64,000 nt of DNA from Dysgonomonas sp. UBA7710 (GTDB lineage: Bacteria > Bacteroidota > Bacteroidia > Bacteroidales > Dysgonomonadaceae). Below are positions 1-15,329 of this stretch, in pieces (within the stretch, counting starts at the first letter, position 1; each line of letters begins with the position of its first letter). The notes under the pieces are model-generated. The model was given only the letters and a program-made list of their open reading frames with translations, was not told where the DNA came from and made no database searches. Made by a program: the position numbers and the translations under genes. The stretch spans positions 39,417 through 103,416 of the forward strand of contig NZ_DLFW01000048.1 of NCBI RefSeq assembly GCF_002482385.1, written 5' to 3'.

Positions 1-1065
1 ATGCTTGCCGGGGTTATCAACCGCCAGTTTATTTGCCTTACTATAGATCCATATGCTAATGCTTTCAATGATGGCCCGGTGAAAGACAGCCGTTGGGCAA
101 GCGATGTAACTAACGAACCGGCAAACCCTCTTGTTTACGAACGCAAATGGGAGATAGACTCACACTGTTATCCTATCCGCTTAGCCTATGAATACTGGAA
201 AACCACAGGAGATACTGTCGTTTTCGGTGAGACTTGGATAAGGGCGATCGAAAATGTATTGAAAACGATGAAAGAACAGCAGCGCAAAGAAAATCCGGGA
301 GAATATTTCTTTTTACGAATGACCGATAGACAACTCGATACTAAGAACAACCGCGGTTGGGGAAACCCTGTAAGACCTGTCGGACTGATTGCTTCATCTT
401 TTCGTCCGTCAGACGATGCCACATCTTATGAGTTTCTTATCCCATCCAATTTTATGGCGGTAACAACATTGCGTAAAGCGGCCGATATACTCCTGTCTGT
501 TAACAAGAACAGCAATTTGGCGGAAGAATGTATAGCCCTGGCTGACGAGATTGAAACCGCACTAAAAAAATATGCCATATATGAACATCCGAAATATGGG
601 CCGATATATGCGTATGAAGTTGATGGTTTTGGAAATTATTGCCTTATGGATGATCCGAATGTTCCAAGCCTGCTGGCAATGTCCTATCTTGGCGATGTAG
701 ATATCAATGATCCTGTTTATCAGAATACCCGCCGTTTTATATGGAGTGATGACAATCCATATTTTTTCAAAGGAAGAGCTGGAGAAGGAATCGGCAGTCC
801 ACATATAGGACGATATGATATGATATGGCCTATGAGCATTATGATGAAAGCCTTCACTTCCCAGGATGATGTCGAAATTAAGATGTGTATGGAATCTCTT
901 CTGAATACAGATGCCGGAAAAGGATTTATACACGAATCATTTCACAAAGATGATCCTAATGAATTTACCCGCGAATGGTTCGCCTGGCAGAATACGCTTT
1001 TCGGAGAACTTGTTATAAAAATTATTAACGATGGGAAACTTGATATTCTAAACTCAATAGATTAA
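1..1065 (+). CDS. C-terminal fragment of a GH125-like (DUF1237) glycoside hydrolase / metal-independent alpha-mannosidase; the 5' end lies outside the window
   Basis: ORF open from base 1 with no start codon in the window. Motifs typical of the alpha/alpha-barrel GH125 family (..GRYDMIWPMSIMMKAF.., ..EWFAWQNTLFGELV..). Assigned from memory of family motifs, not from a search. Confidence 0.5.
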   Translation: MLAGVINRQFICLTIDPYANAFNDGPVKDSRWASDVTNEPANPLVYERKWEIDSHCYPIRLAYEYWKTTGDTVVFGETWIRAIENVLKTMKEQQRKENPGEYFFLRMTDRQLDTKNNRGWGNPVRPVGLIASSFRPSDDATSYEFLIPSNFMAVTTLRKAADILLSVNKNSNLAEECIALADEIETALKKYAIYEHPKYGPIYAYEVDGFGNYCLMDDPNVPSLLAMSYLGDVDINDPVYQNTRRFIWSDDNPYFFKGRAGEGIGSPHIGRYDMIWPMSIMMKAFTSQDDVEIKMCMESLLNTDAGKGFIHESFHKDDPNEFTREWFAWQNTLFGELVIKIINDGKLDILNSID

Positions 1066-1567: not shown

Positions 1568-2020
1568 TTATTTAATAATCTTTACTAATTCTGCATCTTT
1601 CAATAGGTACATCAGATGATTTGGGTCATCCCGATTTATAACCAGTATACCTTTAATTTCTATATACTTATCCGTTTTAACCCGTCTTAGCTCCTTATAT
1701 CCTTTTTTGACAAATATTTCCATAACCGTTTCTATACCGCCTGTCCCACAAAAAAAACACATGGAGGACGGAGACTTTGACAAAGCAAACATTTTTCCTT
1801 CCATATCGATCGGAACATAAAAACCTTTGATCGATATCTCTTTTTTATTCAAAGCTTCAATACCTGATCCAAAATGAGGGATATCGTAATATCCATCTAA
1901 TGCTTTTACATAGCTACGCTTCCAATATACGTCATTCAAAGCCTGCCAGGCTATTGGTTTCTGGGCTTTTAACAAACAAAACCAGAAAATAAAAATGACA
2001 AAGAGAATTACTTTTTTCAT
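1568..2020 (-). CDS. DUF3299-like periplasmic protein; last gene of the ABC operon
   Basis: Signal peptide and a C-x2-C-G-T-G-G motif (FFCGTGG). Its start overlaps the permease stop (ATGA overlap on the minus strand). This family partners with MacB-type ABC transporters. Confidence 0.55.
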   Translation of the reverse strand: MKKVILFVIFIFWFCLLKAQKPIAWQALNDVYWKRSYVKALDGYYDIPHFGSGIEALNKKEISIKGFYVPIDMEGKMFALSKSPSSMCFFCGTGGIETVMEIFVKKGYKELRRVKTDKYIEIKGILVINRDDPNHLMYLLKDAELVKIIK

Positions 2021-3273
2021 TGGCCTAATATTTTTGAGATGTTGGCATTCATTGCTTTAAGTGCCGGTATAAATGCTGCTATGAGGCCTATAACCAACGA
2101 AACGGATAATAGAGATAAGTCAGTTAAAGTTACCCACTCCAGCAGGCTATAATTAAAATTATTGTCAGTATAAGAAGATAAGGAGAACATTGCTAAACGA
2201 CTGATTACGAATCCGATTATATAACCGAGAATAACAAAGCTTACTCCTTCTAAAACGATACAGCCAAACAATCTAAAGCGACTTCCTCCCATGACACGTA
2301 TCAGTGCCAGCTCATATTCCCGATCTTTCAGGGAGTTCAGCAGTGAAATGAAAATACTCAGAGCGGAAATAAATATAATAAATCCGCTTATATATGTTAA
2401 AGCTTCAATGCCTATACCAAGCAATGAGTACAGACGGTTTATTTCCTGTACAGGCGATGCAGCCTGCATATTGGTCGATTTATTAATAAGGCGTGGCAAA
2501 GTTATGGTTCCCATCGGATTCTGGTATTGAATGAGCAAAGATGTTATTTCTTTTGGATTATCCGCTTGTTCATCATGTTCGTGAGTATGCCCCCCTTCTT
2601 TATTGTGCTCATGGTCACAATTGTGATGATCTCCAGACTTACTATGGTCATGATGGTGTTCATGTATTTTCCATACGCTCTCAACATTGGTTAAGATCAA
2701 CTGGTCAAGGACTGTTCCTGTTTCTTTAAAGATGCCGGTTACCGTATAAGGAGTACTTTCATGTACATGGTCCGATTCAGCAGATAGACCGTGGACTCCT
2801 GCAAATTGACGACCTATTGCTAATCCTGTCTTTGAAGCGACTTTTGAGCCGATTGTAACGTCAAAGTCTTTTTGCCATAAGCTTCCTGTTTTTAATTGTC
2901 CTTTGTAAATATCAGGGTATGCCTTATTGGTACCGACAATACGAAACCCTTTGAAATTATCGCCAAGAGCAAGTGGAATTGCCTGTTTTATTAAAGGATT
3001 CTTGCTTAATTCTATTGCCTCATTGTAATCTATATTTCCCGTTGGGTAGTCAACATGATAAATGCCTGACAATATTAGCTGTAGGGGACTCCCCTTGGCA
3101 CCCACAACAAGATCTATCCCTCCGGCATTTTTATATATCTGGTTTTCAAAAGATTCTTTTAAGAGAAAAACCAAAGAGATTATAGTGATTCCTGTTGCAA
3201 AAAGAATAATATTTAAAACCGAGGATAACGGGCGACTCTTTATTTGCTTATAATTGAATTGTATAATATTCAT
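2017..3273 (-). CDS. ABC transporter permease, FtsX/MacB-like, with a His-rich periplasmic insert
   Basis: N-terminal TM helix, large periplasmic domain, and a C-terminal block of 3 TM helices of FtsX type. The insert is HEHHHDHSKSGDHHNCDHEHNKEGGHTHEHDEQ (about nt 2560-2665). Confidence 0.8.
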   Translation of the reverse strand: MNIIQFNYKQIKSRPLSSVLNIILFATGITIISLVFLLKESFENQIYKNAGGIDLVVGAKGSPLQLILSGIYHVDYPTGNIDYNEAIELSKNPLIKQAIPLALGDNFKGFRIVGTNKAYPDIYKGQLKTGSLWQKDFDVTIGSKVASKTGLAIGRQFAGVHGLSAESDHVHESTPYTVTGIFKETGTVLDQLILTNVESVWKIHEHHHDHSKSGDHHNCDHEHNKEGGHTHEHDEQADNPKEITSLLIQYQNPMGTITLPRLINKSTNMQAASPVQEINRLYSLLGIGIEALTYISGFIIFISALSIFISLLNSLKDREYELALIRVMGGSRFRLFGCIVLEGVSFVILGYIIGFVISRLAMFSLSSYTDNNFNYSLLEWVTLTDLSLLSVSLVIGLIAAFIPALKAMNANISKILGQ

Positions 3274-3285
3274 TGTCTTTAATGA

Positions 3286-3942
3286 TTATAAATGGATGAT
3301 CTGGGAAAAATCAGAAATAAGCCGGCTGTCATGAGTTACTATTATTAAACTGGTCCCAAGCTCTTCTGCCTTATTCTGAAGAAGTCCGACAGCTTCTTTG
3401 CAATTTTTATCATCAAGACTTGATGTAGGTTCGTCGGCAAGTATAAGAGATGGTTTATTGATTACTGCTCTGGCGATGGATAATCGCTGTAGTTCTCCTT
3501 GGCTCATTTCGTTTGTTTTACTTTTCCGGCAGCGGCTGATATTCAAAGAATGGAACAGATTGTCCAGATAAGTCTTCTCTACTGGCAGGTTATTAAGGGA
3601 TGCTGCCATCATTAAATTTTCTTCGGCTGTTAATGATTTTATAAAATGGGGAACTTGGAAAACTATTCCAATTTCCCGTCCTCTATATCTGTCTAGTTCT
3701 TTACTTCTTAACCTAGTGATATCCGTCCCTTTTACATAAATATTTCCGCTTTTGGGGCTTATTAAACCTGCTATCAGGTGTAATAATGTTGTCTTCCCGC
3801 AACCCGACGGGCCTGCAACAAGTAAATGGCTTCCTTTTTTACACGAAATATTTGGAAATTTGAACGTATATTCTTGATTATAAGAATACTGTATATTATC
3901 TGTAGCTAAACTCTTATCCATAACCAATAATATTTTCAACAA
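3286..3942 (-). CDS. ABC transporter ATP-binding protein
   Basis: Walker A GPSGCGKTT, signature-like MSQGELQRLSIARA, Walker B LILADEPTSSLD, and an H-loop. Confidence 0.85.
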   Translation of the reverse strand: MLKILLVMDKSLATDNIQYSYNQEYTFKFPNISCKKGSHLLVAGPSGCGKTTLLHLIAGLISPKSGNIYVKGTDITRLRSKELDRYRGREIGIVFQVPHFIKSLTAEENLMMAASLNNLPVEKTYLDNLFHSLNISRCRKSKTNEMSQGELQRLSIARAVINKPSLILADEPTSSLDDKNCKEAVGLLQNKAEELGTSLIIVTHDSRLISDFSQIIHL

Positions 3943-3963
3943 AAGTAATTAATTTTTTAATTC

Positions 3964-3976
3964 GCAACATTGTTGC
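3964..3976. promoter_or_regulatory. candidate metalloregulator (Zur/Fur-type) operator 1: GCAACA-T-TGTTGC
   Basis: A perfect 6-1-6 inverted repeat in the divergent promoter between the ABC operon and the Fur-family gene. Confidence 0.45.
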
Positions 3977-3997
3977 AAATGAATTTTTATTACATTT

Positions 3998-4010
3998 GCA
4001 ACAATGTTAT
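3998..4010. promoter_or_regulatory. candidate operator 2: GCAACA-A-TGTTAT
   Basis: A second copy of the same 13-mer 34 bp downstream, with 5 of 6 positions in the right arm. The flanking TTTGCAACA is also repeated. Confidence 0.4.
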
Positions 4011-4038
4011 TTCAAGATTGATTTAAAAACATACTGAG

Positions 4039-4471
4039 ATGGATTCAGTCAAAGATATATTACACCGGAATAACTTAAAAGGGACATCAGCCCGGATTGC
4101 AATTTTGAATACGATTATAAGTAGTGAGGCCCCTTTGAGTGAATCTGATATAAAAAAAAGAATACATGAAGTTGACAGGGTAACATTCTATCGCTCAATA
4201 AAAAGTCTGTTGGATACAAAAATTATTCAAGGAATGATTACTCAGGGCAAAATAATCAAATACACTTTTTGTCCGGAGAATCAAAAACAATGAAACAGCA
4301 GTTCAATTTTATTGTACCGAGTGCCAAAGAATAGCTGATGTGGAAATAAAAACTCAGTTTCCGGTCGTTCCGCAAGGATATAAAGAAAAGACGCGTAGCA
4401 TAACTATAACGGGAATTTGTAAAGCATGTAATAATTCATCTGAAGAAGAAATAGACGGTGTTGTTATTTAA
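4039..4471 (+). pseudogene. Fur-family (Zur-like) transcriptional regulator, apparently frameshifted
   Basis: The N-terminal winged-helix domain (ARIAILNTI..VTFYRSIKSLL..) ends at the stop at 4291-4293. The +1 frame continues with the Fur C-terminal metal/dimerisation domain (..VQFYCTECQRIADVEI..ITGICKACNN..) up to the stop at 4469-4471. The shift falls inside T5/A5 homopolymer runs at about 4266-4290. Confidence 0.6.
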
Positions 4472-4626
4472 TTCTATGGCGGCATACGGATCTTTGATCC
4501 GACCCGGAGGTAATATCTGCGTAGTTGCCTGTATTAATGCGCTGATTTGGACAAAATTTAAATCGATGGAGCAATCATAAATCCAAAAATAGAACTAAAC
4601 TGATTATCTAATTAAATTAAATAATA

Positions 4627-5595
4627 ATGGGCAAGATCCCTGTGACAATAATAACCGGATTTTTAGGAGCCGGGAAAACTACTTTAATAAACAACCTGAT
4701 AAAAGAATATCCGGAGAAAAAGTTCGCAATTATCGAAAATGAATTTGGAGAGATCGGTCTGGACGGAAGTTTTATTATCGGAGCTGATGAGAATATATTC
4801 GAACTCTCCAACGGCTGTATCTGCTGTTCTTTAAATAATGATTTTTATGAACTTATAAACAAGTTGTTGACAGGGAATTATGATTTCAACCACTTATTGA
4901 TAGAAACAACGGGAATCGCCGACCCCATATCCATCGTAAATGCTTTTCTGTCTGATTATGAGATCATAGAACGTTTTGCTATTGATTCTGTGATTTGTCT
5001 GGTAGATGCAGTTAATATTGAGGACCTGATAAATTCGGAACCCGAAGTGCGTAAACAACTAGCTATAGCTGATATCATTTTGTTGAATAAAGTAGATCTG
5101 GTAAGAACAGGATATTCCGATGAATTAAAAGATAGGATGCAGGAATTCAATCAACTGGCTAGAATATATCCAACTTCAAAAGCGGATATCTCTCAGGTTG
5201 AAATTCTGGATACTTGTCAGTATTTGGGCAGAAAAATCGAACAATCCGTCTCTTCTTTTAAGAATCTTACCTTTCTGGGTAATAATAATGTGAAGCATGA
5301 TATAAAATCGGTTGGAATCTCCATTCCCGGAGACTTGGACTTTGAACGTTTCCGCTTTTGGTTCGAGACTATCCTCTTCTTTGCCAAATACAGGCCGTAC
5401 CGGGTAAAAGGTATTCTCAGTTTTAAAGATGTGCCTGAGAAATGCATTTTACATGCAATAAAGGATAATTATGTATTTGATAAAGGCGATTTGTGGCAGT
5501 CTAATGAAGAACGTTATTGCAAACTCGTATTCATTGGCCGCAATCTCGATAATCTGGAAATAGAAGAAAACATATACAAATTAAGAGCAGAATAA
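4627..5595 (+). CDS. COG0523-family GTPase (CobW/ZigA/YciC-like putative zinc metallochaperone)
   Basis: P-loop GFLGAGKTT, the family-defining GCICCS (CXCC) motif, and NKVDL. Confidence 0.85.
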   Translation: MGKIPVTIITGFLGAGKTTLINNLIKEYPEKKFAIIENEFGEIGLDGSFIIGADENIFELSNGCICCSLNNDFYELINKLLTGNYDFNHLLIETTGIADPISIVNAFLSDYEIIERFAIDSVICLVDAVNIEDLINSEPEVRKQLAIADIILLNKVDLVRTGYSDELKDRMQEFNQLARIYPTSKADISQVEILDTCQYLGRKIEQSVSSFKNLTFLGNNNVKHDIKSVGISIPGDLDFERFRFWFETILFFAKYRPYRVKGILSFKDVPEKCILHAIKDNYVFDKGDLWQSNEERYCKLVFIGRNLDNLEIEENIYKLRAE

Positions 5596-5607
5596 AATAA
5601 TAAAACA

Positions 5608-6798
5608 ATGAACAAAATACCTGTAACAGTCTTAAGTGGCTTTTTGGGGGCCGGAAAGACAACCATATTAAACCATATTCTCAATAACCGTGAGAATATG
5701 AAGGTCGCTGTCATAGTCAATGATATGAGCGAAGTCAATATTGATGCTCAATTAGTGGAAAGAGGCTCTACTCTTTCCCGCACAGAGGAAAAGCTGGTAC
5801 AGCTTAGCAATGGTTGTATATGCTGTACGCTGCGGGACGATTTGGTAAAAGAGGTAACCCGTTTGGTCGAAAATGGCAAATTCGATTATTTATTGATCGA
5901 AGGAACAGGGATAGCAGAGCCTATGCCTATCGCACAGTCATTCAGCTATGCCTTTGAAGATTTGGGCGTTGACCTGACGAAAATTTCACGTCTGGATACA
6001 ATGGTAACCGTTGTCGATGGATTCAATTTTTATAACGATTTCGGATCGTCCGAAACATTAACAGACAGAGACCCTGACAATACGATCAGTGAACGCTCCA
6101 TTGTAGATCTTTTAGTAGAACAGATCGAATTTGCGAATGTCATCATATTGAATAAGGTAGACCTGATATCTGTACATCAACAGGAAGAAATGAAGAGCAT
6201 TATCCGTAAATTAAACCCCGGTGCGAAGATTATTTTAGCCGATCATGGCAAGATTGATCCTAAAGAGATTCTCAATACACATCTATTCGATTTTGTAGAA
6301 GCTGCCCAAAGTTCGGGATGGCAGAACGAATTGCAGAACAAACATATTCCCGAAACAGATGAATACGGTATCGGTTCATTTGTTCTCAGAGAGCACCGTC
6401 CTTTACACCCTCGAAGATTCAGGGAATATCTTAGCAAACATTGGGATGCAGGCATTGTCCGCAGCAAAGGATTTTTCTGGCTGGCAAGCCGCAAAGACGA
6501 AGCATTGTTGCTTAGTCAGGCCGGAGGATCTATTGTCGTGGAACGGATTGGTTCCTGGTGGGCATCTTTCCCTATAAAAGAAAGAAATCAGCATCCTTCA
6601 TTTCAGGCAAATGAAGAATATATATTGAGCCGGTGGGATAAGAAATGGGGAGACCGTATGAATGAAATTGTATTTATCGGACAAAATATGGATGAAAAGA
6701 AGATAAGAGCGGAAATGGAATCTTGTCTTTGCACAGACATTGAATACAATGCTTATCAGAATCAACTACTGACGGATAACAACTGGGATTTTTTATAA
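5608..6798 (+). CDS. COG0523-family GTPase paralog with a CobW_C-like C-terminal domain
   Basis: [21 protein letters not shown]. It is longer than its neighbour because it has an extended C-terminal domain. Confidence 0.85.
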
Positions 6799-6806
6799 AA
6801 AAGCGA

Positions 6807-9152
6807 ATGAAATTTATTTATACATATCTGGTTTTTCTTTTTATGGGTATCAATCTTTCGGCACAATCTTCAATTAAAATCAGCGGATTTATTATGAACG
6901 ATGAAAGAGTACCGATAGAAGCTGTTACAGTTTCGGTTGTAGGGGTTAATAAAGTAACCCGAAGCGACCGGAACGGATACTTTGAACTCATGCTATCAAC
7001 ATCCGGGACTATAACAATCCATATTGATGCTTTAGGCTATTTCCCTATGTCAACACAATTAAGCGTGGATAATAATATGCACCGGGATTTTATTCTTAAA
7101 AAGAATGATATAGAACTGAATGAGGTCACAGTAAGCGCTGATAGCAGGAAAAACTTTCAAATGAAATCATCTCTGAATATCGTTAAGGCCGATAAATCAT
7201 ATATTGAAGATAATTTCTCGGGAAGTCTGATGCAAAGTTTAGAGAAAATACCGGGTGTCAGAGCAATGACTATCGGTTCGGGGCAATCAAAACCGGCTAT
7301 CAGAGGATTTGGCTTTAACAGGATGATGGTTACCGAAAATGGGATCAAACACGAAGGACAGCAATGGGGTGAGGATCACGGATTGGAAATAGACCAGTTT
7401 TCGGTCGATGATATTGAAATTCTAAAAGGCCCGGGTTCGTTATTGTATGGTGGCGACGCCATAGGTGGAGTAATAAGTTTACGTAATAATTATATTCCTT
7501 CAACCAAAACCGAAGGGAATATAAATTTCTACGGAAGAAGCAATAATGAATCGCTTGGTTTTTCCGGTCTGATAGCCGGACGAAACAATAAGTTTTATTA
7601 TAAAGTTAATGCCACCTATGTAGATTATGGTGATTATAAAGTCCCTACTGATAGTATACAGTACTATTCTTATTATATAAAGCTCAAAGATAGACGATTA
7701 CGGAATACAGCCGGGAGAGATCAAAATGCAGGAGTTACACTGGGATACATAAATGAGAAATTTCGCAGTAACTTTCTGATATCGGATGTATATTCAAAGA
7801 GCGGCTTCTTTGCCGATGCGCATGGCCTGGAGGTACACATGTCCGGTATTGATTACGACAAATCCTCTAGGGATATTGATTTACCCTACCATTCGGTTAA
7901 TCACTTCAAGGTAATCAACAACTCCCATTTACAGCTGGGAACACTGCATCTTGAAGGTAATTTTGCTTATCAGAACAATCTGAGAAAAGAATTGTCAGAG
8001 CCTGTATCACACGGATATATGCCTATCCCGTCCGATGCGTTGGAGCGTAAGTTTAATAAAAATACATATACATCCAATATCTTATTTAAACTGCCAATAA
8101 AGAATAAGCACAGTTTACAAGGTGGAATTAATTCGGAATATCAGCATAACTCAAGAGATGGATGGGGGTTTATTATTCCTGATTTTCGAACAACCAATAT
8201 AGGAGTTTTTCTCTATGATCGTTATTCCTTATCAGAAAGCTTAATTATTAATTCCGGAATACGGATAGACAGGACGAAGATTCATACAGACAGTTATCAC
8301 GACTGGTATCAAACACCTGTGGAAAATGGAGACTGGGTATATAAGGAACGGGCTGCCAACCTGAAAAGGAGTTTCAATAGCTTCACCTGGTCGGTAGGCA
8401 TTAATTACAATAAAGATAATTGGATGCTTAAAGCCAATGCAGGTAAAAGTTTCCGCGCTCCTACTCCAAAAGAGCTGGGGTCTGATGGGGTGAACTATCA
8501 CATATTCCGCTACGAAAAAGGGGATAAGAACCTGAATCCGGAAGAATCTTATCAGATAGATATGGGTATCAATTGGAAAAATGATGTCTTGGATATCCGG
8601 TTGGAGCCTTACTTGAATTATTTTCCCAACTATATTTATTTGAATCCGACATCGGGATATTATGAAGGTTTACAGATGTATTACTATACACAGGCAAAAA
8701 TAATAAGATATGGATTTGAGACCAGTCTGGAATACAAACTAAATCATCAGATCACATTGGGAATAGAAGGCGAGTACTTATATGCCGAACAACTTTCAGG
8801 CGATAAGAAAGGATATACGCTTCCCTTCTCTCCTCCATGGTCTTCCAATTTTATTGTTGCTTATCATCCTCAAAATAAGATATTCGGAACAGATGGAAAT
8901 ATCCGGCTGGAATATAATATTGTAGGTTCTCAAAACAGAATAGTACCTCCTGAAAACAAAACAAAAGGATACCAGACGATAAATCTGTCGTTGGGGCGTA
9001 GCTGGCAGATAAACCGAAACCAAATAAAATTACGTCTGCAGGGGCAAAATCTATTGAATAGGAGGTATTACGACCATACAAGTTATTATCGGCTGATAGA
9101 TGTTCCGGAACCGGGACGAAATATATCAATTATGATCGGATATAATTTTTAA
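6807..9152 (+). CDS. TonB-dependent receptor (ZnuD-like candidate)
   Basis: Signal peptide, a carboxypeptidase-regulatory-like N-domain, a plug (..IRGFGFNRMMVTENG..LLYGGDAIGGVISL), a long beta-barrel and a C-terminal ..IGYNF. Confidence 0.85.
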   Translation: MKFIYTYLVFLFMGINLSAQSSIKISGFIMNDERVPIEAVTVSVVGVNKVTRSDRNGYFELMLSTSGTITIHIDALGYFPMSTQLSVDNNMHRDFILKKNDIELNEVTVSADSRKNFQMKSSLNIVKADKSYIEDNFSGSLMQSLEKIPGVRAMTIGSGQSKPAIRGFGFNRMMVTENGIKHEGQQWGEDHGLEIDQFSVDDIEILKGPGSLLYGGDAIGGVISLRNNYIPSTKTEGNINFYGRSNNESLGFSGLIAGRNNKFYYKVNATYVDYGDYKVPTDSIQYYSYYIKLKDRRLRNTAGRDQNAGVTLGYINEKFRSNFLISDVYSKSGFFADAHGLEVHMSGIDYDKSSRDIDLPYHSVNHFKVINNSHLQLGTLHLEGNFAYQNNLRKELSEPVSHGYMPIPSDALERKFNKNTYTSNILFKLPIKNKHSLQGGINSEYQHNSRDGWGFIIPDFRTTNIGVFLYDRYSLSESLIINSGIRIDRTKIHTDSYHDWYQTPVENGDWVYKERAANLKRSFNSFTWSVGINYNKDNWMLKANAGKSFRAPTPKELGSDGVNYHIFRYEKGDKNLNPEESYQIDMGINWKNDVLDIRLEPYLNYFPNYIYLNPTSGYYEGLQMYYYTQAKIIRYGFETSLEYKLNHQITLGIEGEYLYAEQLSGDKKGYTLPFSPPWSSNFIVAYHPQNKIFGTDGNIRLEYNIVGSQNRIVPPENKTKGYQTINLSLGRSWQINRNQIKLRLQGQNLLNRRYYDHTSYYRLIDVPEPGRNISIMIGYNF

Positions 9153-9215
9153 ATGAATACACTTAATATTTTTATTTTCTAACCGGGCATATACAGCCTA
9201 CTTAATTAATGTATT

Positions 9216-10319
9216 ATGAAACAAAAATTTTTATGGGGAGCAATCCTTCTTTTAAACATGTCCTTACTAGTTTTTTCGTCTTGTAGTAGTGATGACGATG
9301 ATGACAATCCAGCTAAGCCAACAGTTCAGATATTGGAATTAGGTTCCGGCCACGATTCACCTAATGACCAAACGGCCTATATAGGAACAGATGCGCATAT
9401 TGAAGCTACAATCCTGGCTGAAGGCCTGATAAAAGAAATTGAAGTGGAAATACATCAGATTGATGGTACGTATGAGTTTGGAAAAGTGTATACTGATTCC
9501 AAGTATGTGGGGAATAAAAATGCAACATTCCATGAACATCTGGACATTCCGGCGGATGCTCCGGCAGGAAAATACCATTTACACTTAGTTGTAGTGGATC
9601 AATTTGGACAAACAGCTACGGCTGAATCTGAATTAACTCTCAAAGAAGCAGAAGTGTCTATTTCTATTGACGGGCTTATTTTCGGATCTGGTCATGATTT
9701 TCCGGATGACAAAACCGGATATATCGGTACTGCTCCGGTGATAGAGGCTGCATCTATTAAAGCGGAAAAAGGGATTGACAGGATATTTGTAGAAATTCAC
9801 AGCGAAGGTGGAACTGCTGCTTTTGAATTGGATACGACTTATACCTATGCAGGTGAAACTGAACTAAAAGATTTCCATAAGCACTTACTTATACCTGATA
9901 ATACTCCTGCCGGGGATTACCACCTTCACTTCCAAGTATATGATAAAAGCGGAAAGTCTCTTGAAAAATCGATGGATATAGAAGTTAAAGAAACAGGGAT
10001 TGCTATATCCGGCTTAGAAATAGGAAGCAATAATTCAGCCGTAGCATCTAACATTCATACCGAGTTTAAAGTGAATGCAACACATCCGTTAAAATCTATT
10101 CGCGTGCGTGTCTATAAAGCAGAAACTCCAACAACTTATGTACTCAATGAAACGTATGTTGATGAATTTGCAACAGGTGATGTAAAAGAATATACTTTTC
10201 ATAAACACTTGAAGGCAACCGGAGCTGCTGTTGGAGAGTATATAATTGAAATAAGGATAAATGATGCTAAAGGTGCCAATAAAACTATAAAAGATAAACT
10301 TACTATTACAGGAGAATAA
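9216..10319 (+). CDS. surface lipoprotein with three tandem ~105-aa His-motif domains
   Basis: Signal peptide and lipobox (FSSCSSDDDDDN). Three internal repeats each carry FH[EK]HL; repeats 1 and 2 also carry PAG(K/D)YHLH. Confidence 0.6.
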   Translation: MKQKFLWGAILLLNMSLLVFSSCSSDDDDDNPAKPTVQILELGSGHDSPNDQTAYIGTDAHIEATILAEGLIKEIEVEIHQIDGTYEFGKVYTDSKYVGNKNATFHEHLDIPADAPAGKYHLHLVVVDQFGQTATAESELTLKEAEVSISIDGLIFGSGHDFPDDKTGYIGTAPVIEAASIKAEKGIDRIFVEIHSEGGTAAFELDTTYTYAGETELKDFHKHLLIPDNTPAGDYHLHFQVYDKSGKSLEKSMDIEVKETGIAISGLEIGSNNSAVASNIHTEFKVNATHPLKSIRVRVYKAETPTTYVLNETYVDEFATGDVKEYTFHKHLKATGAAVGEYIIEIRINDAKGANKTIKDKLTITGE

Positions 10320-10353
10320 TTTTGAATAAAAACTATTCGCTTAAAAAAACAGA

Positions 10354-10833
10354 ATGAATAAAAAGATTATACTATTCAGCCTTTTTTGTCTTCTTGCTAT
10401 GGCTTGTAGTAATGATGATGAAGACAGCCGGGATATGGAGAAACCTTCCATAGATATGGGCTTCAAGAATGCTTATCCACAAAATTGTGTGATTTTGTAC
10501 CGGGGGGAAAGCTTCCCTTTCAGGGCAGTATTCACAGATAATGAGGAATTGGGAAATTACAATATCGAAATTCATAATAATTTCGATCATCATTCCCATA
10601 GTACGGATGATGTAGAGTGTGATTTGGAACCAAAGAAAACTCCAGTAAAAGCATTTGTCTATAATCAGGATTTCTCGATTCCTTTAGGAAAAAATATCTT
10701 TGAAGCCGATAATGAAATTTTTATACCAGAGGATGTGGATACTGGAGATTATCATTTTATGGTTCGGCTGACAGATAAAGCCGGATGGCAACAATTAAAA
10801 GCAATAAGTTTAAAAATAAAAGACAGAAATTAA
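10354..10833 (+). CDS. lipoprotein with a single copy of the same His-motif domain
   Basis: Lipobox LAMACSNDDED, a His cluster HNNFDHHSHSTDD, and a ..DTGDYHFMVRLTDKAG.. block that parallels ..PAGDYHLHFQVYDKSG.. in the upstream protein. Confidence 0.55.
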   Translation: MNKKIILFSLFCLLAMACSNDDEDSRDMEKPSIDMGFKNAYPQNCVILYRGESFPFRAVFTDNEELGNYNIEIHNNFDHHSHSTDDVECDLEPKKTPVKAFVYNQDFSIPLGKNIFEADNEIFIPEDVDTGDYHFMVRLTDKAGWQQLKAISLKIKDRN

Positions 10834-10883
10834 ACCTTTATTTTATAATTCAGACTTCAGTATTAGAATTAATATAACAATTC

Positions 10884-10922
10884 ATATATAGCTATTTATA
10901 AGAGTTGTAAATAGCTATATAT
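10884..10922. repeat. perfect 15-bp inverted repeat (ATATATAGCTATTTA / TAAATAGCTATATAT) with a 9-nt loop
   Basis: Read directly from the sequence. It lies 50 bp after the stop of the lipoprotein gene. The stem is AT-rich, so its role as a terminator is uncertain. Confidence 0.5.
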
Positions 10923-11071
10923 GACTAATAAACCGAATGCTTAATATTCCTATTTCTTATATTCATTGATACCTAATTATCGTTATTTTAACAGGAATTA
11001 TCACAAATAATGGGGATTTAATTTAGTTTCTGTAACTTCTACCTTTGTAAGGTACTAATCATATATAAATT

Positions 11072-11905
11072 ATGAGAAAATTAGTTCCCTCCATCAGTGA
11101 TAATATAGCTGATACACTTTTCATCACTGTCTATATGAGAGCTTTAGACGCCCAACAGAAAAATCCTGTTTTGGGAGACAGTAAGAGTTTAGAATTGATG
11201 AACATGGTAGATTATCCATTTGAAAAATATTCGGGAATCAAAACAATGAGTCGTCTGGGAACCTGCGTCCGTCTGAAATATATTGACAACGAGTTGGAAA
11301 AGTTTATTTCTACTCATAAAAACACAATTGTTGTAAATATCGGTTGTGGCTTAGATGATAGATATAACCGGATAAAGAATGCATCTGAAGCAGTTTTTTA
11401 TGAATTGGATATTCCTGAATCCATTCAATTACGGCAACAGTTAATCCCTGTACGAAAGAATCAATCTTTAATATCTGGGTCTGCTTTTGAAATAGATTGG
11501 CTGGATAAATTGAAAGAAAAACACTCAGATAATCACTTTATTTTTATAGCAGAAGGTGTGTTTATGTACTTCCCGGAAGAAATGGTTAGAAATTTGCTAA
11601 CAGCTATATCAAAACGCTTTCCGGGAGCATCCATTATTTTCGACGGATTATCCGGGTATCTTAGCCGGCATTCGGATAAGCATGATACCCTGCGAAAGTC
11701 AAAAGCAATTTTTGCCTGGGGATTTGATAACAACCAGATATTTAAAGAATGGCATCCTAATTTAAAATTAGATAAGGTATTTTATATTATGCATGGTATG
11801 CGACCATATAATTTTATGGTTCGCTTGCTAAGTTATATTCCCGTTTTTGGAAAAGGATCTAAAATTGTCTCGTTGAGTGTTACTTCTGACCAGAAAAAAA
11901 ATTGA
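11072..11905 (+). CDS. class I SAM-dependent methyltransferase (LCM/TcmP-like O-methyltransferase family)
   Basis: ..VVNIGCGLDDRYNRI.. motif I and ..FIAEGVFMYFPEE.., typical of the leucine-carboxyl / polyketide O-methyltransferase-like family. Confidence 0.65.
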   Translation: MRKLVPSISDNIADTLFITVYMRALDAQQKNPVLGDSKSLELMNMVDYPFEKYSGIKTMSRLGTCVRLKYIDNELEKFISTHKNTIVVNIGCGLDDRYNRIKNASEAVFYELDIPESIQLRQQLIPVRKNQSLISGSAFEIDWLDKLKEKHSDNHFIFIAEGVFMYFPEEMVRNLLTAISKRFPGASIIFDGLSGYLSRHSDKHDTLRKSKAIFAWGFDNNQIFKEWHPNLKLDKVFYIMHGMRPYNFMVRLLSYIPVFGKGSKIVSLSVTSDQKKN

Positions 11906-12277
11906 AGTTGAAATAGTTTTTTATAAAGAATAGAATATCATGATTGTATTTCCGGAGAGAAAATATCTATTTGAATTATCATTCATGGATAAATAGGAAC
12001 AGTTAGTGAAACTCTTATATTTATGTATGTCTCTGAATAATATTTCTAAGTATTAATTGAAAAATTAAAGTGAACGCTGTATAAAAAGAAGAATCTAAAC
12101 ATGTAACCTGAACTCGCATTATTGAATTTAAAGATAAAGAGAAGATTCACAAATTATAAAGACATTATTCCTGTTTATATTTCTATGGCCAGGTAATATT
12201 GACAAACTCATATACGAATTAAATAAGCATTTTGATTAGTATTTTTCATTGCTTTTTTCTCTCATTCTCTAAAAAAT

Positions 12278-12306
12278 AAAAGGAAATGCTGAAAGCATTT
12301 CCTTTT
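12278..12306 (-). terminator. rho-independent terminator of the PepSY-like gene
   Basis: 12-bp perfect stem AAAAGGAAATGC/GCATTTCCTTTT with a 4-nt loop, followed on the minus strand by a U-run. Confidence 0.7.
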
Positions 12307-12342
12307 ATCTACTAAAATTGTCAGATGTAGATTGGGTATAAT

Positions 12343-12678
12343 TTATTCGGCAGCAGTTTCTACATATTCCTTACCTTCGTCATCCAAAATAACAACTTTA
12401 ATGCTTTCATCTGATTTTGAAGATAAAGTTACTTTAGTAAGTTTCTTATCTGCATTGTAGGCCAGAGCTGTGACATTATATGATTCTGTGTACCCTTGAA
12501 TAGCAGCTTGTACTTTCTCGTTCAAATCTTCTAACTTCACGTCCACATATCCGTCATCATTTGCTTGACTAACAGCAACGACTGCATTATTCTCAACTGA
12601 TAAACTTTGTACATTTGCAAAAGCTGATGTTCCAAAAACTATCGCAATGGCTAACATCATTAATTTCATTGTTTTCAT
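12343..12678 (-). CDS. small secreted PepSY-like (DUF2874-type) protein
   Basis: Signal peptide MKTMKLMMLAIAIVFGTSAFA, then ..KLEDLNEKVQAAIQGY..KVTL..IKVVILDDEGKEYVE, which resembles PepSY-like beta-lactamase-inhibitor-like folds. Confidence 0.5.
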   Translation of the reverse strand: MKTMKLMMLAIAIVFGTSAFANVQSLSVENNAVVAVSQANDDGYVDVKLEDLNEKVQAAIQGYTESYNVTALAYNADKKLTKVTLSSKSDESIKVVILDDEGKEYVETAAE

Positions 12679-12743
12679 GTCTCCAAATTTTTAAATTACT
12701 ATTAATAAGTATAAATGTGTAAACTTCCGTTACATTATACAAT

Positions 12744-12759
12744 TTGCAATAGGTATGCC
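12744..12759 (-). promoter_or_regulatory. sigma-54 (RpoN) -24/-12 promoter: TGGCAT-ACCTA-TTGCA
   Basis: The reverse complement of 12744-12759 matches the TGGCAC-N5-TTGCW consensus with exact GG-N10-GC spacing. The -12 element is about 67 nt upstream of the ATG at 12678. Confidence 0.6.
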
Positions 12760-12847
12760 AAAAAGACCATAAATATTCTTTGTTTTTGTAATGCTCCGTA
12801 AATCAGTGCGATATGTGAATGTTGTTAATCAGATAGCAGAAATGAAA

Positions 12848-12891
12848 CTGTGGAACTGTGGAAAATTTCCACAATTTAGACTGTGGAAAAC
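12848..12891. promoter_or_regulatory. candidate enhancer (UAS) for the NtrC-type activator: three CTGTGGAA direct repeats plus the palindrome TGTGGAAA-A-TTTCCACA
   Basis: CTGTGGAA at 12848, 12856 and 12881. An 8-1-8 perfect palindrome at 12857-12873. It is about 100-130 bp upstream of the sigma-54 -24 element. Confidence 0.45.
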
Positions 12892-12950
12892 TAAATAGAA
12901 TTATTATTTGTTCGTTTTATATATGTATAATAGAAATAAATAATAAAAGG

Positions 12951-15329
12951 ATGTCAGAAACTCCCGAAAAAAATATAAGATTCAAAGCTATATTGATATA
13001 TGTAATTGTTGCTTTTATTTGTGGCGGAATGCTTATTTATATATATAAACTAAGAGATGACATTGATGATCAAAAGAGAAGTATTTCACAGTACTATAAA
13101 GAGCTATCATTAGTCAACGAACTGATTGATTCTGTAAATGCATCGCAATCGGAAGTAAATATGTATGTGTCTACAAAGCAAATAAGGCATTATAAATCCT
13201 TCAATGAAAGCCTGAATATCGTCGAACAGCTAATGGATTCTCTTAGTCATATAAATCCATTACACAACGATAAATTACAACAAATTAATCACCTTTTGGT
13301 AAAAAAAGGGGTAATTGTTTCAAATTTGAATAAACAATTTAATAATAAAAATCCCATAGAATCAATAAATGAAATATTAAAAGAAATCGATCCTGTTATC
13401 AAAAAAGATACTGTCTTGGTCACTACAACGGTACAGGATACTATAATTTATTCGGGGCCCCAAAAAGGCTTCTGGAGGAAACTGGGGGAATTGTTTTCTT
13501 CTTCAAAAGGGGCCGATACTGTGACTTCAATTACTACAGCCAGGTTGGATACATTGACTGTGCCGAAAAACGATACACTCCATGTAGTTACAGAGGTTAC
13601 AGAAATAGCAGAACAAGCCAAAGACGACTATGTAAAAAGAATTATATCTATCGAAAAAAATCTAAGCAGCCTAATTGTAGCAGATCAGGAAATTTCTTCT
13701 GAAATCACTACATTACTAATTGGCTTGTATAACCAAACTGTTCAGGCGAGACTTGATGAAATTCAGAAAAGCGAACAACTGATACGTAATAATAATACTT
13801 ATTCTATAATAAGTAGTATCGTTTCTCTTATCTTGATTTTTATATTTATATCACTCATAATAAGTGATGTAAATAAGAGTTATAGACTGCGAAAGAATGT
13901 AGAACGGGCAAACCTGAGGATTAAGCAAATTATGGATAGTCGTCATAAATTGTTACTATCTATTTCTCATGATATTAAAACGCCTCTTAATTCTATACTA
14001 GGAACGTTAGAATTAAAAGAAACAAGCAATGGGTTTCTACATGATGAAGTGCGCACGATGAAAGATTCGGGAGAATATATCCTTGCTTTGCTAGGTAACC
14101 TATTGGAATTTTCGAGTATTGAACAAGGTACTTCGAATATATCGAATCGTATCTTTAATCTACATGCCCTATGTCAGCAGACAGTTGAAATGTTTATTCC
14201 TCTTGCAAACAAGAAGAATCTTACATTGGCCTATTCGTTTGACTTCGATAAAAATTTGATATTGTCGTCCGATTCTTTAAAAATTAAACAAATACTAATA
14301 AATATATTATCTAATTCAATTAAATATACATTAGAGGGTTTCATTCAGTTTAATGTAAAATATTCTGATTCCGGATTATATTGTACTATAGAGGATACAG
14401 GCGTAGGTATTCCTGAAAATCAAATCAAAAATATATTTCAGCCATTTAGCCGGGTTGATCAAAATTCACATTTGTCGGAAGGTTCAGGATTTGGAATGTA
14501 TGTCGTAAAAGGTTTGGTCGATTTATTTCAGGGAAATATAAAAGTTACTTCGGAAGAAGGGAAGGGAACCAGAACTGAAATATCTATTCCGGTAAGTGAA
14601 GTTTCTATAAATGAAACTTTTATTCCTAAGAGAATATTAATAGTAGACGATGATATATCTTATTTGATAATTATTCGCAATATGTTATCAGACTTAGGGC
14701 ATATACCTTCTATGTGTGGTAATATAGCAGATTTTGAAAATATAATAACAGAAATCAATCAATATGATGAGATATTGACGGATATGGAAATGGAGAATTT
14801 TAATGGAATTGATGTTTTAAACAGGATAAAATATAGTGGAATAAATATACCGGTTACAGTCGTTACGGCCCGGGAAGATATTAATAATGATGATTTTATA
14901 AGAATGGGATTTAAAGCCTATATTAAGAAACCGATTTCAACCTGTGACTTAAAGTTACTGTTCGGAGGACAAATAAAAGATGAAAGAGTAGCAGGCTTTA
15001 GTTCGCTTAATAAAATGCTGGAAGAAGATTCCGATGCATTGCATGAGGTTCTAACATCTTTTGTCGATTCTACAACAGAAAATATCGGCAAACTTAAACA
15101 GGCCGTACTCAATAGTGATTATAACATGGCTCAGTTTATTAGCCATAAAATGCAGCCGATGTTTATACAGGTCGGAGCAGTTGAGAAGTTAGATATATTG
15201 AAGAAACTGGACGCACACCGTTTAGATGGAATGTCAATGTATCCCGGATGGGAGGATGATGTACTTGAACTTATTGAATATGCGGAACAGATAATAACTG
15301 AAACTGAAAATTATTTGAAATCTCATTAA
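12951..15329 (+). CDS. hybrid sensor histidine kinase/response regulator (HisKA, HATPase, REC, Hpt)
   Basis: TM helix after MSETPEK. H-box SISHDIKTPLNSILG, N/G boxes (..NSIKYT.., GVGIPE, GSGFGMYVVKG), a receiver domain (ILIVDDD..TDMEM) and a C-terminal Hpt-like helix bundle. The alternative start at 12858 is judged less likely. Confidence 0.85.
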   Translation: MSETPEKNIRFKAILIYVIVAFICGGMLIYIYKLRDDIDDQKRSISQYYKELSLVNELIDSVNASQSEVNMYVSTKQIRHYKSFNESLNIVEQLMDSLSHINPLHNDKLQQINHLLVKKGVIVSNLNKQFNNKNPIESINEILKEIDPVIKKDTVLVTTTVQDTIIYSGPQKGFWRKLGELFSSSKGADTVTSITTARLDTLTVPKNDTLHVVTEVTEIAEQAKDDYVKRIISIEKNLSSLIVADQEISSEITTLLIGLYNQTVQARLDEIQKSEQLIRNNNTYSIISSIVSLILIFIFISLIISDVNKSYRLRKNVERANLRIKQIMDSRHKLLLSISHDIKTPLNSILGTLELKETSNGFLHDEVRTMKDSGEYILALLGNLLEFSSIEQGTSNISNRIFNLHALCQQTVEMFIPLANKKNLTLAYSFDFDKNLILSSDSLKIKQILINILSNSIKYTLEGFIQFNVKYSDSGLYCTIEDTGVGIPENQIKNIFQPFSRVDQNSHLSEGSGFGMYVVKGLVDLFQGNIKVTSEEGKGTRTEISIPVSEVSINETFIPKRILIVDDDISYLIIIRNMLSDLGHIPSMCGNIADFENIITEINQYDEILTDMEMENFNGIDVLNRIKYSGINIPVTVVTAREDINNDDFIRMGFKAYIKKPISTCDLKLLFGGQIKDERVAGFSSLNKMLEEDSDALHEVLTSFVDSTTENIGKLKQAVLNSDYNMAQFISHKMQPMFIQVGAVEKLDILKKLDAHRLDGMSMYPGWEDDVLELIEYAEQIITETENYLKSH

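What the first reader, a model, noticed from the sequence alone, without database searches (positions are those of the whole stretch)
4039..4471. Fur-family (Zur-like) regulator split by a frameshift in a homopolymer tract
The DNA-binding domain ORF stops at 4293. The C-terminal metal-binding/dimerisation domain (CTEC ... CKAC) is intact in the +1 frame and runs to 4471. The only plausible junction is the T5/A5 runs at 4266-4290. This is a sequencing error, a recent pseudogenisation that would de-repress the whole island, or a slippage-prone on/off switch for the regulator.
Basis: seen in the sequence. Interest (0 to 1): 0.6.

Follow-up and report, generated by a model that had tools for sequence, protein, structure and literature searches.

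The report
Frameshift-broken zinc regulator gene in Dysgonomonas
One extra A in a short A-run has cut a Fur-family (probably zinc-sensing) repressor gene in two in one natural Dysgonomonas lineage; it is a real inherited mutation, not a sequencing error or an on/off switch, and is an ordinary kind of gene loss.

Summary
ORF 4039-4293 (84 aa) encodes the winged-helix DNA-binding domain of a Fur-family regulator. The rest of the protein (CTEC, CKAC) is open in the +1 frame from 4256 to 4471.

The break is one extra A in the run at 4283-4287. This window has A5. Every same-species assembly outside one lineage has A4, as a 143-aa ORF: 11 that I read at the run (10 full-length, plus one fragment that starts inside the gene). 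Removing one A gives a protein 100% identical to theirs. The T5 run at 4266-4270 is not involved.

The A5 allele appears in at least five other assemblies. All share one haplotype: 0-1 differences over 16 kb, against 26-68 differences per 6-10 kb to every A4 strain. Two of these assemblies have since gained a SNP inside the dead gene and carry a recombinant right flank. The allele is therefore a real, heritable, single-origin mutation. It is not a miscall or a phase switch, and I found no recoding signal.

All 14 orthologues in Dysgonomonas are single ORFs.

The gene leads a conserved zinc-starvation island: two COG0523 GTPases, a ZnuD-like receptor, DUF4625 proteins and a divergent ABC transporter with a His-rich loop. 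Loss of the dimerisation and Cys4 domain should de-repress this island. That step is inferred, not shown.

This is an ordinary kind of event, of low to moderate interest.

The parts
4039..4471 (+). Whole Fur-family regulator gene, disrupted. It is 433 nt here and 432 nt, as a 143-aa ORF, in A4 strains.
   Evidence: Deleting one A gives a protein 100% identical to P0001. A profile of the orthologues matches solved Fur, PerR and Zur chains over their full length, E 5e-8.
4039..4293 (+). Truncated ORF of 84 aa. It holds the complete N-terminal winged-helix DNA-binding domain plus a 2-residue out-of-frame tail (KQ), then TGA.
   Evidence: The AF2 model has helices 4-10, 17-28, 35-41 and 47-59 and a hairpin at 63-67/73-77, with block-mean pLDDT 78-91 over residues 1-80. 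The top Foldseek hits are all Fur family.
4283..4287 (+). A5 run, the site of the +1 insertion. Every A4-type assembly that I read at this run (11 assemblies) has A4 here.
4256..4471 (+). Frame-2 open stretch encoding the orphaned C-terminal dimerisation and Cys4 domain (CTEC 4313-4324, CKAC 4418-4429). The first possible start is GTG at 4340, which lies after CTEC.
   Evidence: C92, C95, C127 and C130 are invariant in 14 orthologues.
4126..4126 (+). Position of a G-to-A change (E30K) carried by the A5 sub-lineage L013/L014. It is the only difference from the window in 16 kb.
3962..3978 (.). Palindrome TCGCAACATTGTTGCAA, a candidate operator, in the divergent promoter region. The arms GCAAC/GTTGC are conserved in four Dysgonomonas species while the centre varies. 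It is the only such site in the 64-kb window.
   Evidence: The operator role is inferred.
3966..4008 (.). Perfect 16-nt inverted repeat, AACATTGTTGCAAATG / CATTTGCAACAATGTT, with an 11-nt spacer. The core TGCAAATGA...ATTTGCA is invariant across species.
3991..3998 (+). TACATTTG, a match to the Bacteroidetes -7 promoter box TAnnTTTG, 41 nt before the ATG at 4039. Its counterpart for the divergent ABC operon is TACTTTTG at 3947-3940 on the minus strand.
   Evidence: The consensus is from my own knowledge, so the promoter role is inferred.
4627..5595 (+). COG0523 (CobW-type) GTPase 1, with CxCC (CICC) at 4816-4827.
5608..6798 (+). COG0523 GTPase 2, ZigA-like (529.8 bits against the ZigA equivalog model, cut-off 600), with CICC at 5815-5826.
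6807..9152 (+). TonB-dependent receptor. Its best NCBIfam match is ZnuD, at 165 bits, far below the cut-off of 950.
9216..10833 (+). Two DUF4625 proteins (367 and 159 aa) that end the co-directional gene string.
1568..3942 (-). Divergent operon: ABC ATPase (3286-3942, or 3921 if the ATG start is used), FtsX/MacB-type permease (2017-3273) with the His-rich loop HEHHHDHSKSGDHHNCDHEHNKEGGHTHEHDE at 2569-2664, and a 150-aa protein (1568-2020).

Best explanation
In one natural lineage of a Dysgonomonas species, replication slippage added one A to a 4-nt A-run (CAA AAC became CAA AAA C) in the linker of a Fur-family metal-responsive repressor gene. Translation now ends two codons later, at TGA 4291-4293.

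The product is an 84-aa fragment with the winged-helix domain only. It lacks the dimerisation domain and the Cys4 zinc site, and no start codon allows the C-terminal domain to be made separately with both CxxC pairs. This is a heritable loss-of-function allele, that is, a young pseudogene.

The gene is the first gene of a conserved zinc-starvation island and faces a divergent ABC transporter operon across a conserved palindrome. The protein is therefore most probably the local Zur-type repressor, and its loss most probably makes the island constitutively expressed.

Shown: the mutation, its position, its heritability, its single origin, the intact state in all relatives, Fur-family membership, and the zinc-related neighbourhood.

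Inferred: zinc as the sensed metal, repression through the palindrome, and de-repression in this lineage.
For: (1) Removing one A restores a 143-aa protein 100% identical to P0001, which is encoded on at least 23 contigs.

(2) Eleven A4 assemblies (10 full-length plus L020, a fragment that starts inside the gene) are identical to the window in the local sequence context (10 aligned over 140 nt; L020 read directly) and differ only in tract length.

(3) The A5 allele is present in ENA ERZ17807429 (SPAdes node, coverage 89, 100% identical to the window), JGI 3300042648, and Logan assemblies of ERR3179245, ERR3179741 and ERR3179777.

(4) All A5 copies share one haplotype: 0 differences in 10 kb to the left and 0-1 in 6 kb of island. 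Every A4 strain differs by 25-68 per 4.4-10 kb of left flank (the two shortest overlaps give 12/3.0 kb and 6/1.1 kb) and by 26-31 per 6 kb of island. Of 141 variable columns in 1568-10115, the extra A is one of only five variants private to that haplotype.

(5) L013/L014 carry A5 plus one further SNP (E30K) and a divergent right flank (15 differences in 2 kb from 10116). The allele has therefore been transmitted and has outlived a recombination event.

(6) All 14 orthologues are single ORFs of 133-143 aa with four invariant Cys. Nearly all of the 150 best of 2393 representative relatives are single chains of about 130-160 aa aligned over their full length; a few are short fragments or up to 218 aa.

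(7) Fur-family assignment: Pfam, a PDB profile and Foldseek.

(8) Zinc context: two CxCC COG0523 genes, one of them ZigA-like; a ZnuD-like receptor; a His-rich permease; and ZIP transporters next to the island in two relatives. COG0523 genes are often Zur-regulated (PMC11672702).

(9) No terminator-like site lies between the regulator and the COG0523 genes. There is a single conserved palindrome between the two divergent promoter boxes.
Against: No reads were available, so the allele fraction within samples is unknown.

The A5-bearing runs may not be independent biological samples. Three share the accession block ERR3179xxx, and the JGI contig is 100% identical to the ENA one.

The metal specificity is not established. 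The best NCBIfam hits are PerR and Fur models, far below their cut-offs. This Dysgonomonas clade also lacks the H-x-H before the first CxxC that its nearest relatives keep.

The AF2 model of the C-terminal domain has low confidence, with block-mean pLDDT 29-59 from residue 81 on.

De-repression has no expression data behind it. A monomeric DNA-binding domain might keep some residual binding.
Confidence: 0.8

Rival explanations
1. Sequencing or assembly error: the genome really has A4 and the gene is intact.
For: Homopolymer miscalls are the commonest cause of apparent frameshifts. I could not inspect reads.
Against: The same A5 is found by different assemblers in at least four other runs or samples. 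It co-segregates perfectly with a SNP haplotype. A4 strains have exactly the same local sequence, so a context-driven error would hit them too. The source contig has about 89x coverage and a SPAdes-style name, which points to short reads. Across 20 kb and 14 assemblies, the only other homopolymer length difference is an intergenic A6/A7.
Confidence: 0.04
2. Phase-variable contingency switch: the A-run flips between A4 (ON) and A5 (OFF) at high frequency to toggle the island.
For: The change is a 1-nt length change in a homopolymer inside a regulator. Both states exist in the species.
Against: The tract is only 4-5 nt. Known contingency tracts are about 7 nt or longer (my own knowledge). The tract is absent in sister species: CAT AGC in D. 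gadei, GAA AAT and AAA GAA in others. Tract length is fully linked to haplotype. All five A5 assemblies sit in one clone, and no A4 is seen in that clone even after a SNP and a recombination event. No A5 is seen in any other background. The much longer A8 run at 4152-4159 is invariant.
Confidence: 0.05
3. Programmed recoding: +1 ribosomal frameshifting or transcriptional slippage at the run still yields the full-length regulator.
For: The frameshift lies in an A-rich stretch immediately before a stop codon.
Against: Every orthologue and every other strain is in frame, so there is no conserved recoding site. The P-site codons CAA, AAA and CAA cannot re-pair in the +1 frame (AAA, AAC, AAT), as read from the sequence. 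Five A's are too few for efficient polymerase slippage (my own knowledge). The ATG that overlaps the stop (ATGA, 4290-4293) opens the third frame and gives a 14-aa peptide, not the C-terminal domain.
Confidence: 0.02
4. The truncated 84-aa DNA-binding domain remains a working, or altered, regulator, so regulation of the island is changed rather than lost.
For: The complete winged-helix domain is retained and modelled with high confidence. The promoter and operator region is unchanged in the A5 haplotype.
Against: Fur-family proteins bind their palindromic boxes as dimers formed by the C-terminal domain, and metal sensing lies at or beyond the hinge (established knowledge of the family; structures listed). 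The invariant Cys4 site is entirely in the lost part.
Confidence: 0.06

Closest known systems
Zur (zinc uptake regulator) branch of the Fur family, e.g. B. subtilis Zur, M. tuberculosis FurB/Zur (2o03), E. coli Zur (4mtd), S. coelicolor Zur (3mwm)
   Same: It has the same two-domain layout in about 140 aa, a Cys4 site made of two CxxC pairs, and self-adjacent control of COG0523 GTPases, a TonB-dependent receptor and transporters. Profile and fold matches cover the full length.
   Different: Sequence models do not place it in Zur rather than Fur or PerR. The best NCBIfam hits are PerR and Fur, at 33-35 bits against cut-offs of 180-220. The usual His cluster before the first CxxC is missing in the Dysgonomonas clade. 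In this window the gene is broken.
Natural zur mutations in Mycobacterium tuberculosis lineage 1 (PMC13284343)
   Same: These are naturally occurring changes in a zinc repressor, including a few frameshifts and premature stops, and they are linked to higher expression of its regulon.
   Different: In that study most changes are amino-acid or promoter substitutions, and the authors argue that complete loss is not favoured and is not fixed in any lineage. Here a complete truncation is carried by a transmitted lineage. No expression data exist here.
Homopolymer-tract phase variation (contingency loci of Neisseria, Haemophilus, Campylobacter, Helicobacter)
   Same: It is a 1-nt length change in a coding homopolymer that switches a gene off.
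   Different: The tract is only 4-5 nt, is not conserved, and shows no length heterogeneity within a clone. It behaves as an ordinary spontaneous indel.
Zur-regulated islands with two COG0523 genes and a TonB component, e.g. the P. aeruginosa Zur regulon described in PMC11672702
   Same: It has divergent operons under one control region, two COG0523 paralogues and an outer-membrane uptake component.
   Different: The lineage is Bacteroidota, with DUF4625 lipoprotein-like genes and a MacB/FtsX-type ABC system carrying a His-rich loop. The regulator itself is the first gene of the operon.

Membership tests
Fur family (PF01475) | Significant match to the family profile above the curated threshold | tested here: met
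   The repaired 143-aa protein scores 27.1 bits against a cut-off of 23.1. The 84-aa ORF as encoded scores only 19.3 bits, below the cut-off. A profile of 14 orthologues hits Fur, PerR and Zur chains in the PDB at E 5e-8 over their full length.
Fur family (PF01475) | One chain of about 130-160 aa with an N-terminal winged helix and a C-terminal dimerisation domain | tested here: not met
   This is met by all 14 orthologues and by all A4 strains. It is not met by the gene as it stands in this window: 84 aa, then a stop, with the second domain in another frame.
Fur family (PF01475) | Structural Cys4 zinc site made of two CxxC pairs | tested here: met
   CTEC (4313-4324) and CKAC (4418-4429) are present in frame 2. 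C92, C95, C127 and C130 are invariant in the orthologues. They are not translated with the N-terminal domain here.
Fur family (PF01475) | Regulatory metal site with a His-rich motif at the hinge, before the first CxxC | tested here: inconclusive
   The nearest outgroup representatives keep H-x-H (HVHFFC). The Dysgonomonas clade has VQFYC. D. gadei has FCHENH upstream, and this species has FCPENQ. The ligands cannot be assigned from sequence.
Fur family (PF01475) | Fur fold | tested here: inconclusive
   The N-terminal domain is confident and all top Foldseek hits are Fur family. The C-terminal domain has block-mean pLDDT 29-59 from residue 81 on, mostly below 50, and TM-scores are 0.4-0.5.
Zur subfamily | Sequence placement with characterised Zur proteins | tested here: not met
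   No Zur model appears among the NCBIfam hits. The best are PerR (34.5 bits) and Fur (32.7 bits), far below their cut-offs. The PDB ranking mixes Fur, PerR and Zur.
Zur subfamily | Association with zinc-acquisition or zinc-sparing genes | tested here: met
   Synteny with two CxCC COG0523 genes (one ZigA-like at 529.8 bits), a ZnuD-like receptor and a His-rich ABC permease is conserved. ZIP transporters lie next to the island in L015 and L019.
Zur subfamily | Zinc-dependent binding to an operator and repression | not testable with these tools
   Only a conserved palindrome between divergent promoter boxes was found.
Phase-variable contingency locus | Long, conserved simple-sequence tract whose length varies within clones | tested here: not met
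   The tract is A4/A5 only and is absent in sister species. Its length is fully linked to one haplotype.
Programmed frameshift gene | Frameshift site conserved in orthologues, with a shift-prone codon context | tested here: not met
   All orthologues and all other strains are in frame. No re-pairing is possible in the +1 frame (sequence).

The most novel reading that the evidence does not exclude
Loss of the repressor is adaptive rather than accidental. On this reading, constitutive zinc scavenging was selected in a host-associated or zinc-poor niche, and the broken allele spread.

The 16-kb block carrying it is identical in two strains that differ by 0.7% immediately to its right. That pattern would fit transfer of the block by homologous recombination, a gene-level sweep.

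The evidence does not exclude this: the lineage is found in several samples, the island genes are all intact, and natural zur variants that raise regulon expression are under positive selection in M. tuberculosis (PMC13284343). It is equally compatible with a neutral or mildly deleterious hitch-hiking mutation, with an unrelated recombination event on the right flank.
Probability: 0.15. Interest if true: 0.45.

Novelty: new member of a known kind. Interest (0 to 1): 0.22.

Why it matters
For annotation, the two pieces at 4039-4293 and 4340-4471 should be one pseudogene, not two small 'Fur family' proteins as at least one pipeline called them.

For biology, this is a natural knockout of the regulator that heads a Bacteroidota zinc-starvation island. 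Its isogenic-like wild-type relatives occur in the same data series. If isolates or reads can be obtained, comparing A4 and A5 strains would define this poorly studied regulon, including DUF4625, the His-rich MacB-type ABC system and the paired COG0523 genes, without any genetics.

Beyond that, it is a routine spontaneous frameshift.

Tried and rejected
- **T5 run (4266-4270) as the junction:** rejected. It is identical in all strains, and the repaired T-variant (…KYTFVRRIKNNE…) is not the protein seen elsewhere.
- **Separate expression of the C-terminal domain:** rejected. There is no ATG, GTG or TTG in frame 2 between 4256 and the GTG at 4340, which lies after CTEC. The ATG overlapping the stop opens frame 3.
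- **More operator copies:** searches of the 64-kb window for TTGCAACANTGTTGCAA and TTGCAACNNNGTTGCAA, with up to 3 and 2 mismatches, found only the site at 3962-3978. That count is not above chance on its own, since 19-36% of shuffles give at least one match. The case for an operator rests on cross-species conservation.
- **Sigma-70 promoter scan:** no more hits than in shuffles, and not appropriate for Bacteroidota. No terminator-like site was found in 3900-4700.
- **Second Fur-like gene in the window:** none. Only the two halves of this gene hit the profile.
- **Exact-pattern scan of species-representative genomes:** no match for any tract length from 2 to 8. The JGI metagenome scan gave one more A4 copy.
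- **Sample origin:** the literature search found only that runs in the neighbouring accession block (ERR3178962-ERR3179112, PRJEB6505) are Illumina HiSeq 2500 stool virus-metagenomics libraries from Kenya (PMC12509558). That our runs belong to the same project is a guess from accession proximity.
- **AF2 model:** it did not resolve the C-terminal domain, so it could not help with metal-site assignment.
- **Direction of the recombination event:** comparison of the right flank could not say which A5 sub-lineage is the recombinant. Both are about equally distant from all A4 strains there.

Full report
**What is in the sequence.**
- ORF 4039-4293 (frame 1) encodes 84 aa and ends at TGA 4291-4293.
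- Frame 2 is closed by nine stops up to 4253-4255. It is then open from 4256 to TAA 4469-4471 and reads SNTLFVRRIKNNETAVQFYCTECQRIADVEIKTQFPVVPQGYKEKTRSITITGICKACNNSSEEEIDGVVI.
- A single +1 event must therefore lie in 4256-4290. That interval holds a T5 run (4266-4270) and an A5 run (4283-4287).

**Where the break is.**
- Deleting one A of the A5 run gives a 143-aa protein. It is 100% identical over its full length to P0001, a 'Fur family transcriptional regulator' of Dysgonomonas sp. encoded on more than 20 contigs.
- Ten assemblies of the same species (99.4-99.6% identity over about 9.5 kb) all have A4 where the window has A5.
- The other 139 compared columns around the site, including the T5 run, are identical.
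- The extra A is the only gap in 9.5 kb for nine of the ten.
- An eleventh copy, from a JGI metagenome, also has A4.

**Error or mutation?** The truncated 84-aa product is itself on record in other assemblies.
- L011 is ENA ERZ17807429, a 142.9-kb SPAdes-style node with coverage 89. It is 100% identical to the window over 14.3 kb and is presumably the window's source.
- L021 is JGI 3300042648, a 76.5-kb contig, also 100% identical.
- L012 is a Logan assembly of ERR3179245.
- L013 and L014 are Logan assemblies of ERR3179741 and ERR3179777. They carry the variant P0019, which has E30K.

All A5 copies share one haplotype.
- They show 0 differences in the 10 kb to the left of the gene and 0-1 in the 6 kb island.
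- Every A4 strain differs from them by 25-68 positions over 4.4-10 kb of left flank (two shorter overlaps give 12/3.0 kb and 6/1.1 kb) and by 26-31 in the island. A4 strains differ among themselves to the same degree.
- Of 141 variable columns between 1568 and 10115, only five variants are private to the A5 haplotype: the inserted A and four SNPs in the receptor gene.

The local sequence is the same in A4 and A5 strains, so a context-dependent miscall cannot explain a length that tracks linked SNPs. Across 20 kb and 14 assemblies, the only other homopolymer length difference is an intergenic A6/A7 at 10343. The A5 allele is therefore a real, inherited mutation of single origin.

**Age and spread.**
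- L013 and L014 are identical to the window type for 16 kb, apart from G-to-A at 4126 (E30K, inside the dead ORF).
- From 10116 onward they differ at 15 of 2023 positions, and they carry 21 bp that the window type lacks.
- The allele has therefore persisted through at least one substitution and one recombination event, and occurs in at least two distinguishable strains.
- The C-terminal coding part carries no further damage, and the island genes all keep their full lengths. The event is young.
- E30 is a variable position, and K occurs naturally in P0010. The SNP says little.

**Not a switch, not recoding.**
- The tract is 4-5 nt.
- It is a species-specific by-product of substitutions: D. gadei has CAT AGC where this species has CAA AAC.
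- Its length never varies within a haplotype.
- The longer A8 run at 4152-4159 is invariant.
- No orthologue is out of frame.
- The codons before the stop (CAA AAA CAA TGA) cannot re-pair in the +1 frame.
- The ATG overlapping the stop opens frame 3, which gives a 14-aa peptide.
- The first start codon in frame 2 is GTG at 4340, downstream of CTEC.

**What the gene is.**
- The repaired protein passes Pfam FUR, at 27.1 bits against a cut-off of 23.1.
- A profile of 14 Dysgonomonas orthologues aligns over its full length with solved Fur, PerR and Zur structures, best E 5e-8.
- It also finds 2393 representative relatives. Nearly all of the 150 best are single chains of about 130-160 aa; a few are short fragments or up to 218 aa.
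- The AF2 model is confident for the winged helix (residues 1-80, block-mean pLDDT 78-91) and poor for the C-terminal domain. All the top Foldseek hits are Fur family.
- The four Cys of the two CxxC pairs are invariant.
- Subtype is not resolved by sequence. NCBIfam gives PerR and Fur models at 33-35 bits, far below their cut-offs.
- The clade also lacks the H-x-H that its nearest relatives have before the first CxxC.

**Neighbourhood.** The layout is conserved in D. gadei and in two other species. It runs ABC ATPase, FtsX/MacB permease and a 150-aa protein on one side, divergent from the fur-like gene, then (thioredoxin-like and 211-aa genes in some species), COG0523, COG0523, TonB-dependent receptor, DUF4625 and DUF4625. 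A ZIP transporter lies next to the island in two of the relatives.
- Both COG0523 proteins carry CxCC, and the second is ZigA-like at 529.8 bits.
- The receptor's best match is ZnuD.
- The permease has a 32-residue His-rich loop.
- COG0523 genes are frequently Zur-controlled, and a similar divergent arrangement is known in P. aeruginosa (PMC11672702).
- This makes a zinc-sensing (Zur-type) role the best reading. It remains an inference.

**Control region.**
- The 96-nt divergent intergenic region holds a palindrome, TCGCAACATTGTTGCAA (3962-3978). Its arms are conserved in four species while its centre varies.
- That palindrome is embedded in a perfect 16-nt inverted repeat (3966-3981 / 3993-4008).
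- The region is flanked by TAnnTTTG boxes on each strand, at 3991-3998 (+) and 3947-3940 (-).
- It is the only such palindrome in the window.
- No terminator-like site separates the regulator from the COG0523 genes.
- The simplest model is one operator controlling both operons, with autoregulation. This is inferred.

**Consequence.** Fur-family repressors bind palindromic boxes as dimers held by the C-terminal domain, and they need their structural zinc site (established knowledge of the family). The 84-aa fragment lacks both. The expected result is constitutive expression of the island in this lineage. Natural zur variants with raised regulon expression are documented in M. tuberculosis lineage 1, although complete loss is rare there (PMC13284343). 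No expression data exist for this case.

**Caveats.**
- I could not see reads.
- The A5-bearing runs may share a study, a host or a sequencing centre. The link of ERR3179xxx to PRJEB6505 and Illumina HiSeq 2500 rests on accession proximity only.
- The JGI and ENA contigs may derive from the same data.
- The existence of two genetically distinct A5 carriers is the strongest argument for true inheritance.

**Verdict.** This is a genuine, recently arisen, transmitted frameshift pseudogene of a Fur-family, probably Zur-type, repressor. Such events are ordinary. Its value lies in correct annotation and in offering a natural regulator knockout for a little-studied Bacteroidota zinc island.

Noticed in passing
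window 811-812 (L012) and about 82 nt left of the window start (L027): The GH125 glycoside hydrolase gene, whose 3' part is window 1-1065, is split independently in two other assemblies. L012 (ERR3179245) has a 5-bp GATAT tandem duplication, giving 397 + 81 aa. L027 (ERR3179334) has a 5-bp deletion, giving 99 + 379 aa.
   Followed up: partly
window 10116-14293; window 10319/10320: The two A5 sub-lineages are identical for 16 kb. They then differ at about 0.5-0.7% (20 SNPs in 4.2 kb), which marks a recombination breakpoint near 10116. The window type alone lacks 21 bp (TTAATTATAAATGGCGAATAG) between the two DUF4625 genes.
   Followed up: partly
window 10343: There is an A7/A6 length polymorphism in the intergenic region upstream of the 159-aa DUF4625 gene, with the shorter form in L022 and L027. 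It is the only other homopolymer length variant in 20 kb across 14 assemblies.
   Followed up: no
window 2569-2664 (-): The FtsX/MacB-type ABC permease carries a 32-residue His-rich loop, HEHHHDHSKSGDHHNCDHEHNKEGGHTHEHDE. This suggests metal binding by a transporter type usually linked to export or lipoprotein release.
   Followed up: no
window 4264-4312 (protein residues 76-91); alignments A3, A4: The Dysgonomonas Fur-like clade lacks the H-x-H motif before the first CxxC that its nearest relatives keep (HVHFFC against VQFYC). This species has also replaced FCHENH by FCPENQ. The regulatory metal site of this clade may therefore be unconventional.
   Followed up: partly
window 4152-4159: An A8 run encoding DIKKRI lies in the DNA-binding domain. 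It is conserved as A8 in D. gadei and A6 in another species, and it is invariant in all strains despite being far more slippage-prone than the A4 run that actually mutated.
   Followed up: no
window 4472-4626 vs L015:4139-5053, L017:5127-6057: This species has a 155-bp non-coding gap between the regulator and the first COG0523 gene. D. gadei and another species carry a thioredoxin-like gene and a 211-aa gene of unknown family there.
   Followed up: no
window 7837, 7868, 8395, 8897: Four SNPs in the TonB-dependent receptor gene are the only variants between 1568 and 10115, apart from the inserted A, that are private to the A5 haplotype. I did not check whether they change the protein.
   Followed up: no
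window 4340-4471: At least one public annotation (JGI/IMG) calls the orphaned 43-aa tail (VEIKTQ...) a separate 'Fur family ferric uptake transcriptional regulator' gene. This is an annotation artefact of the frameshift.
   Followed up: yes
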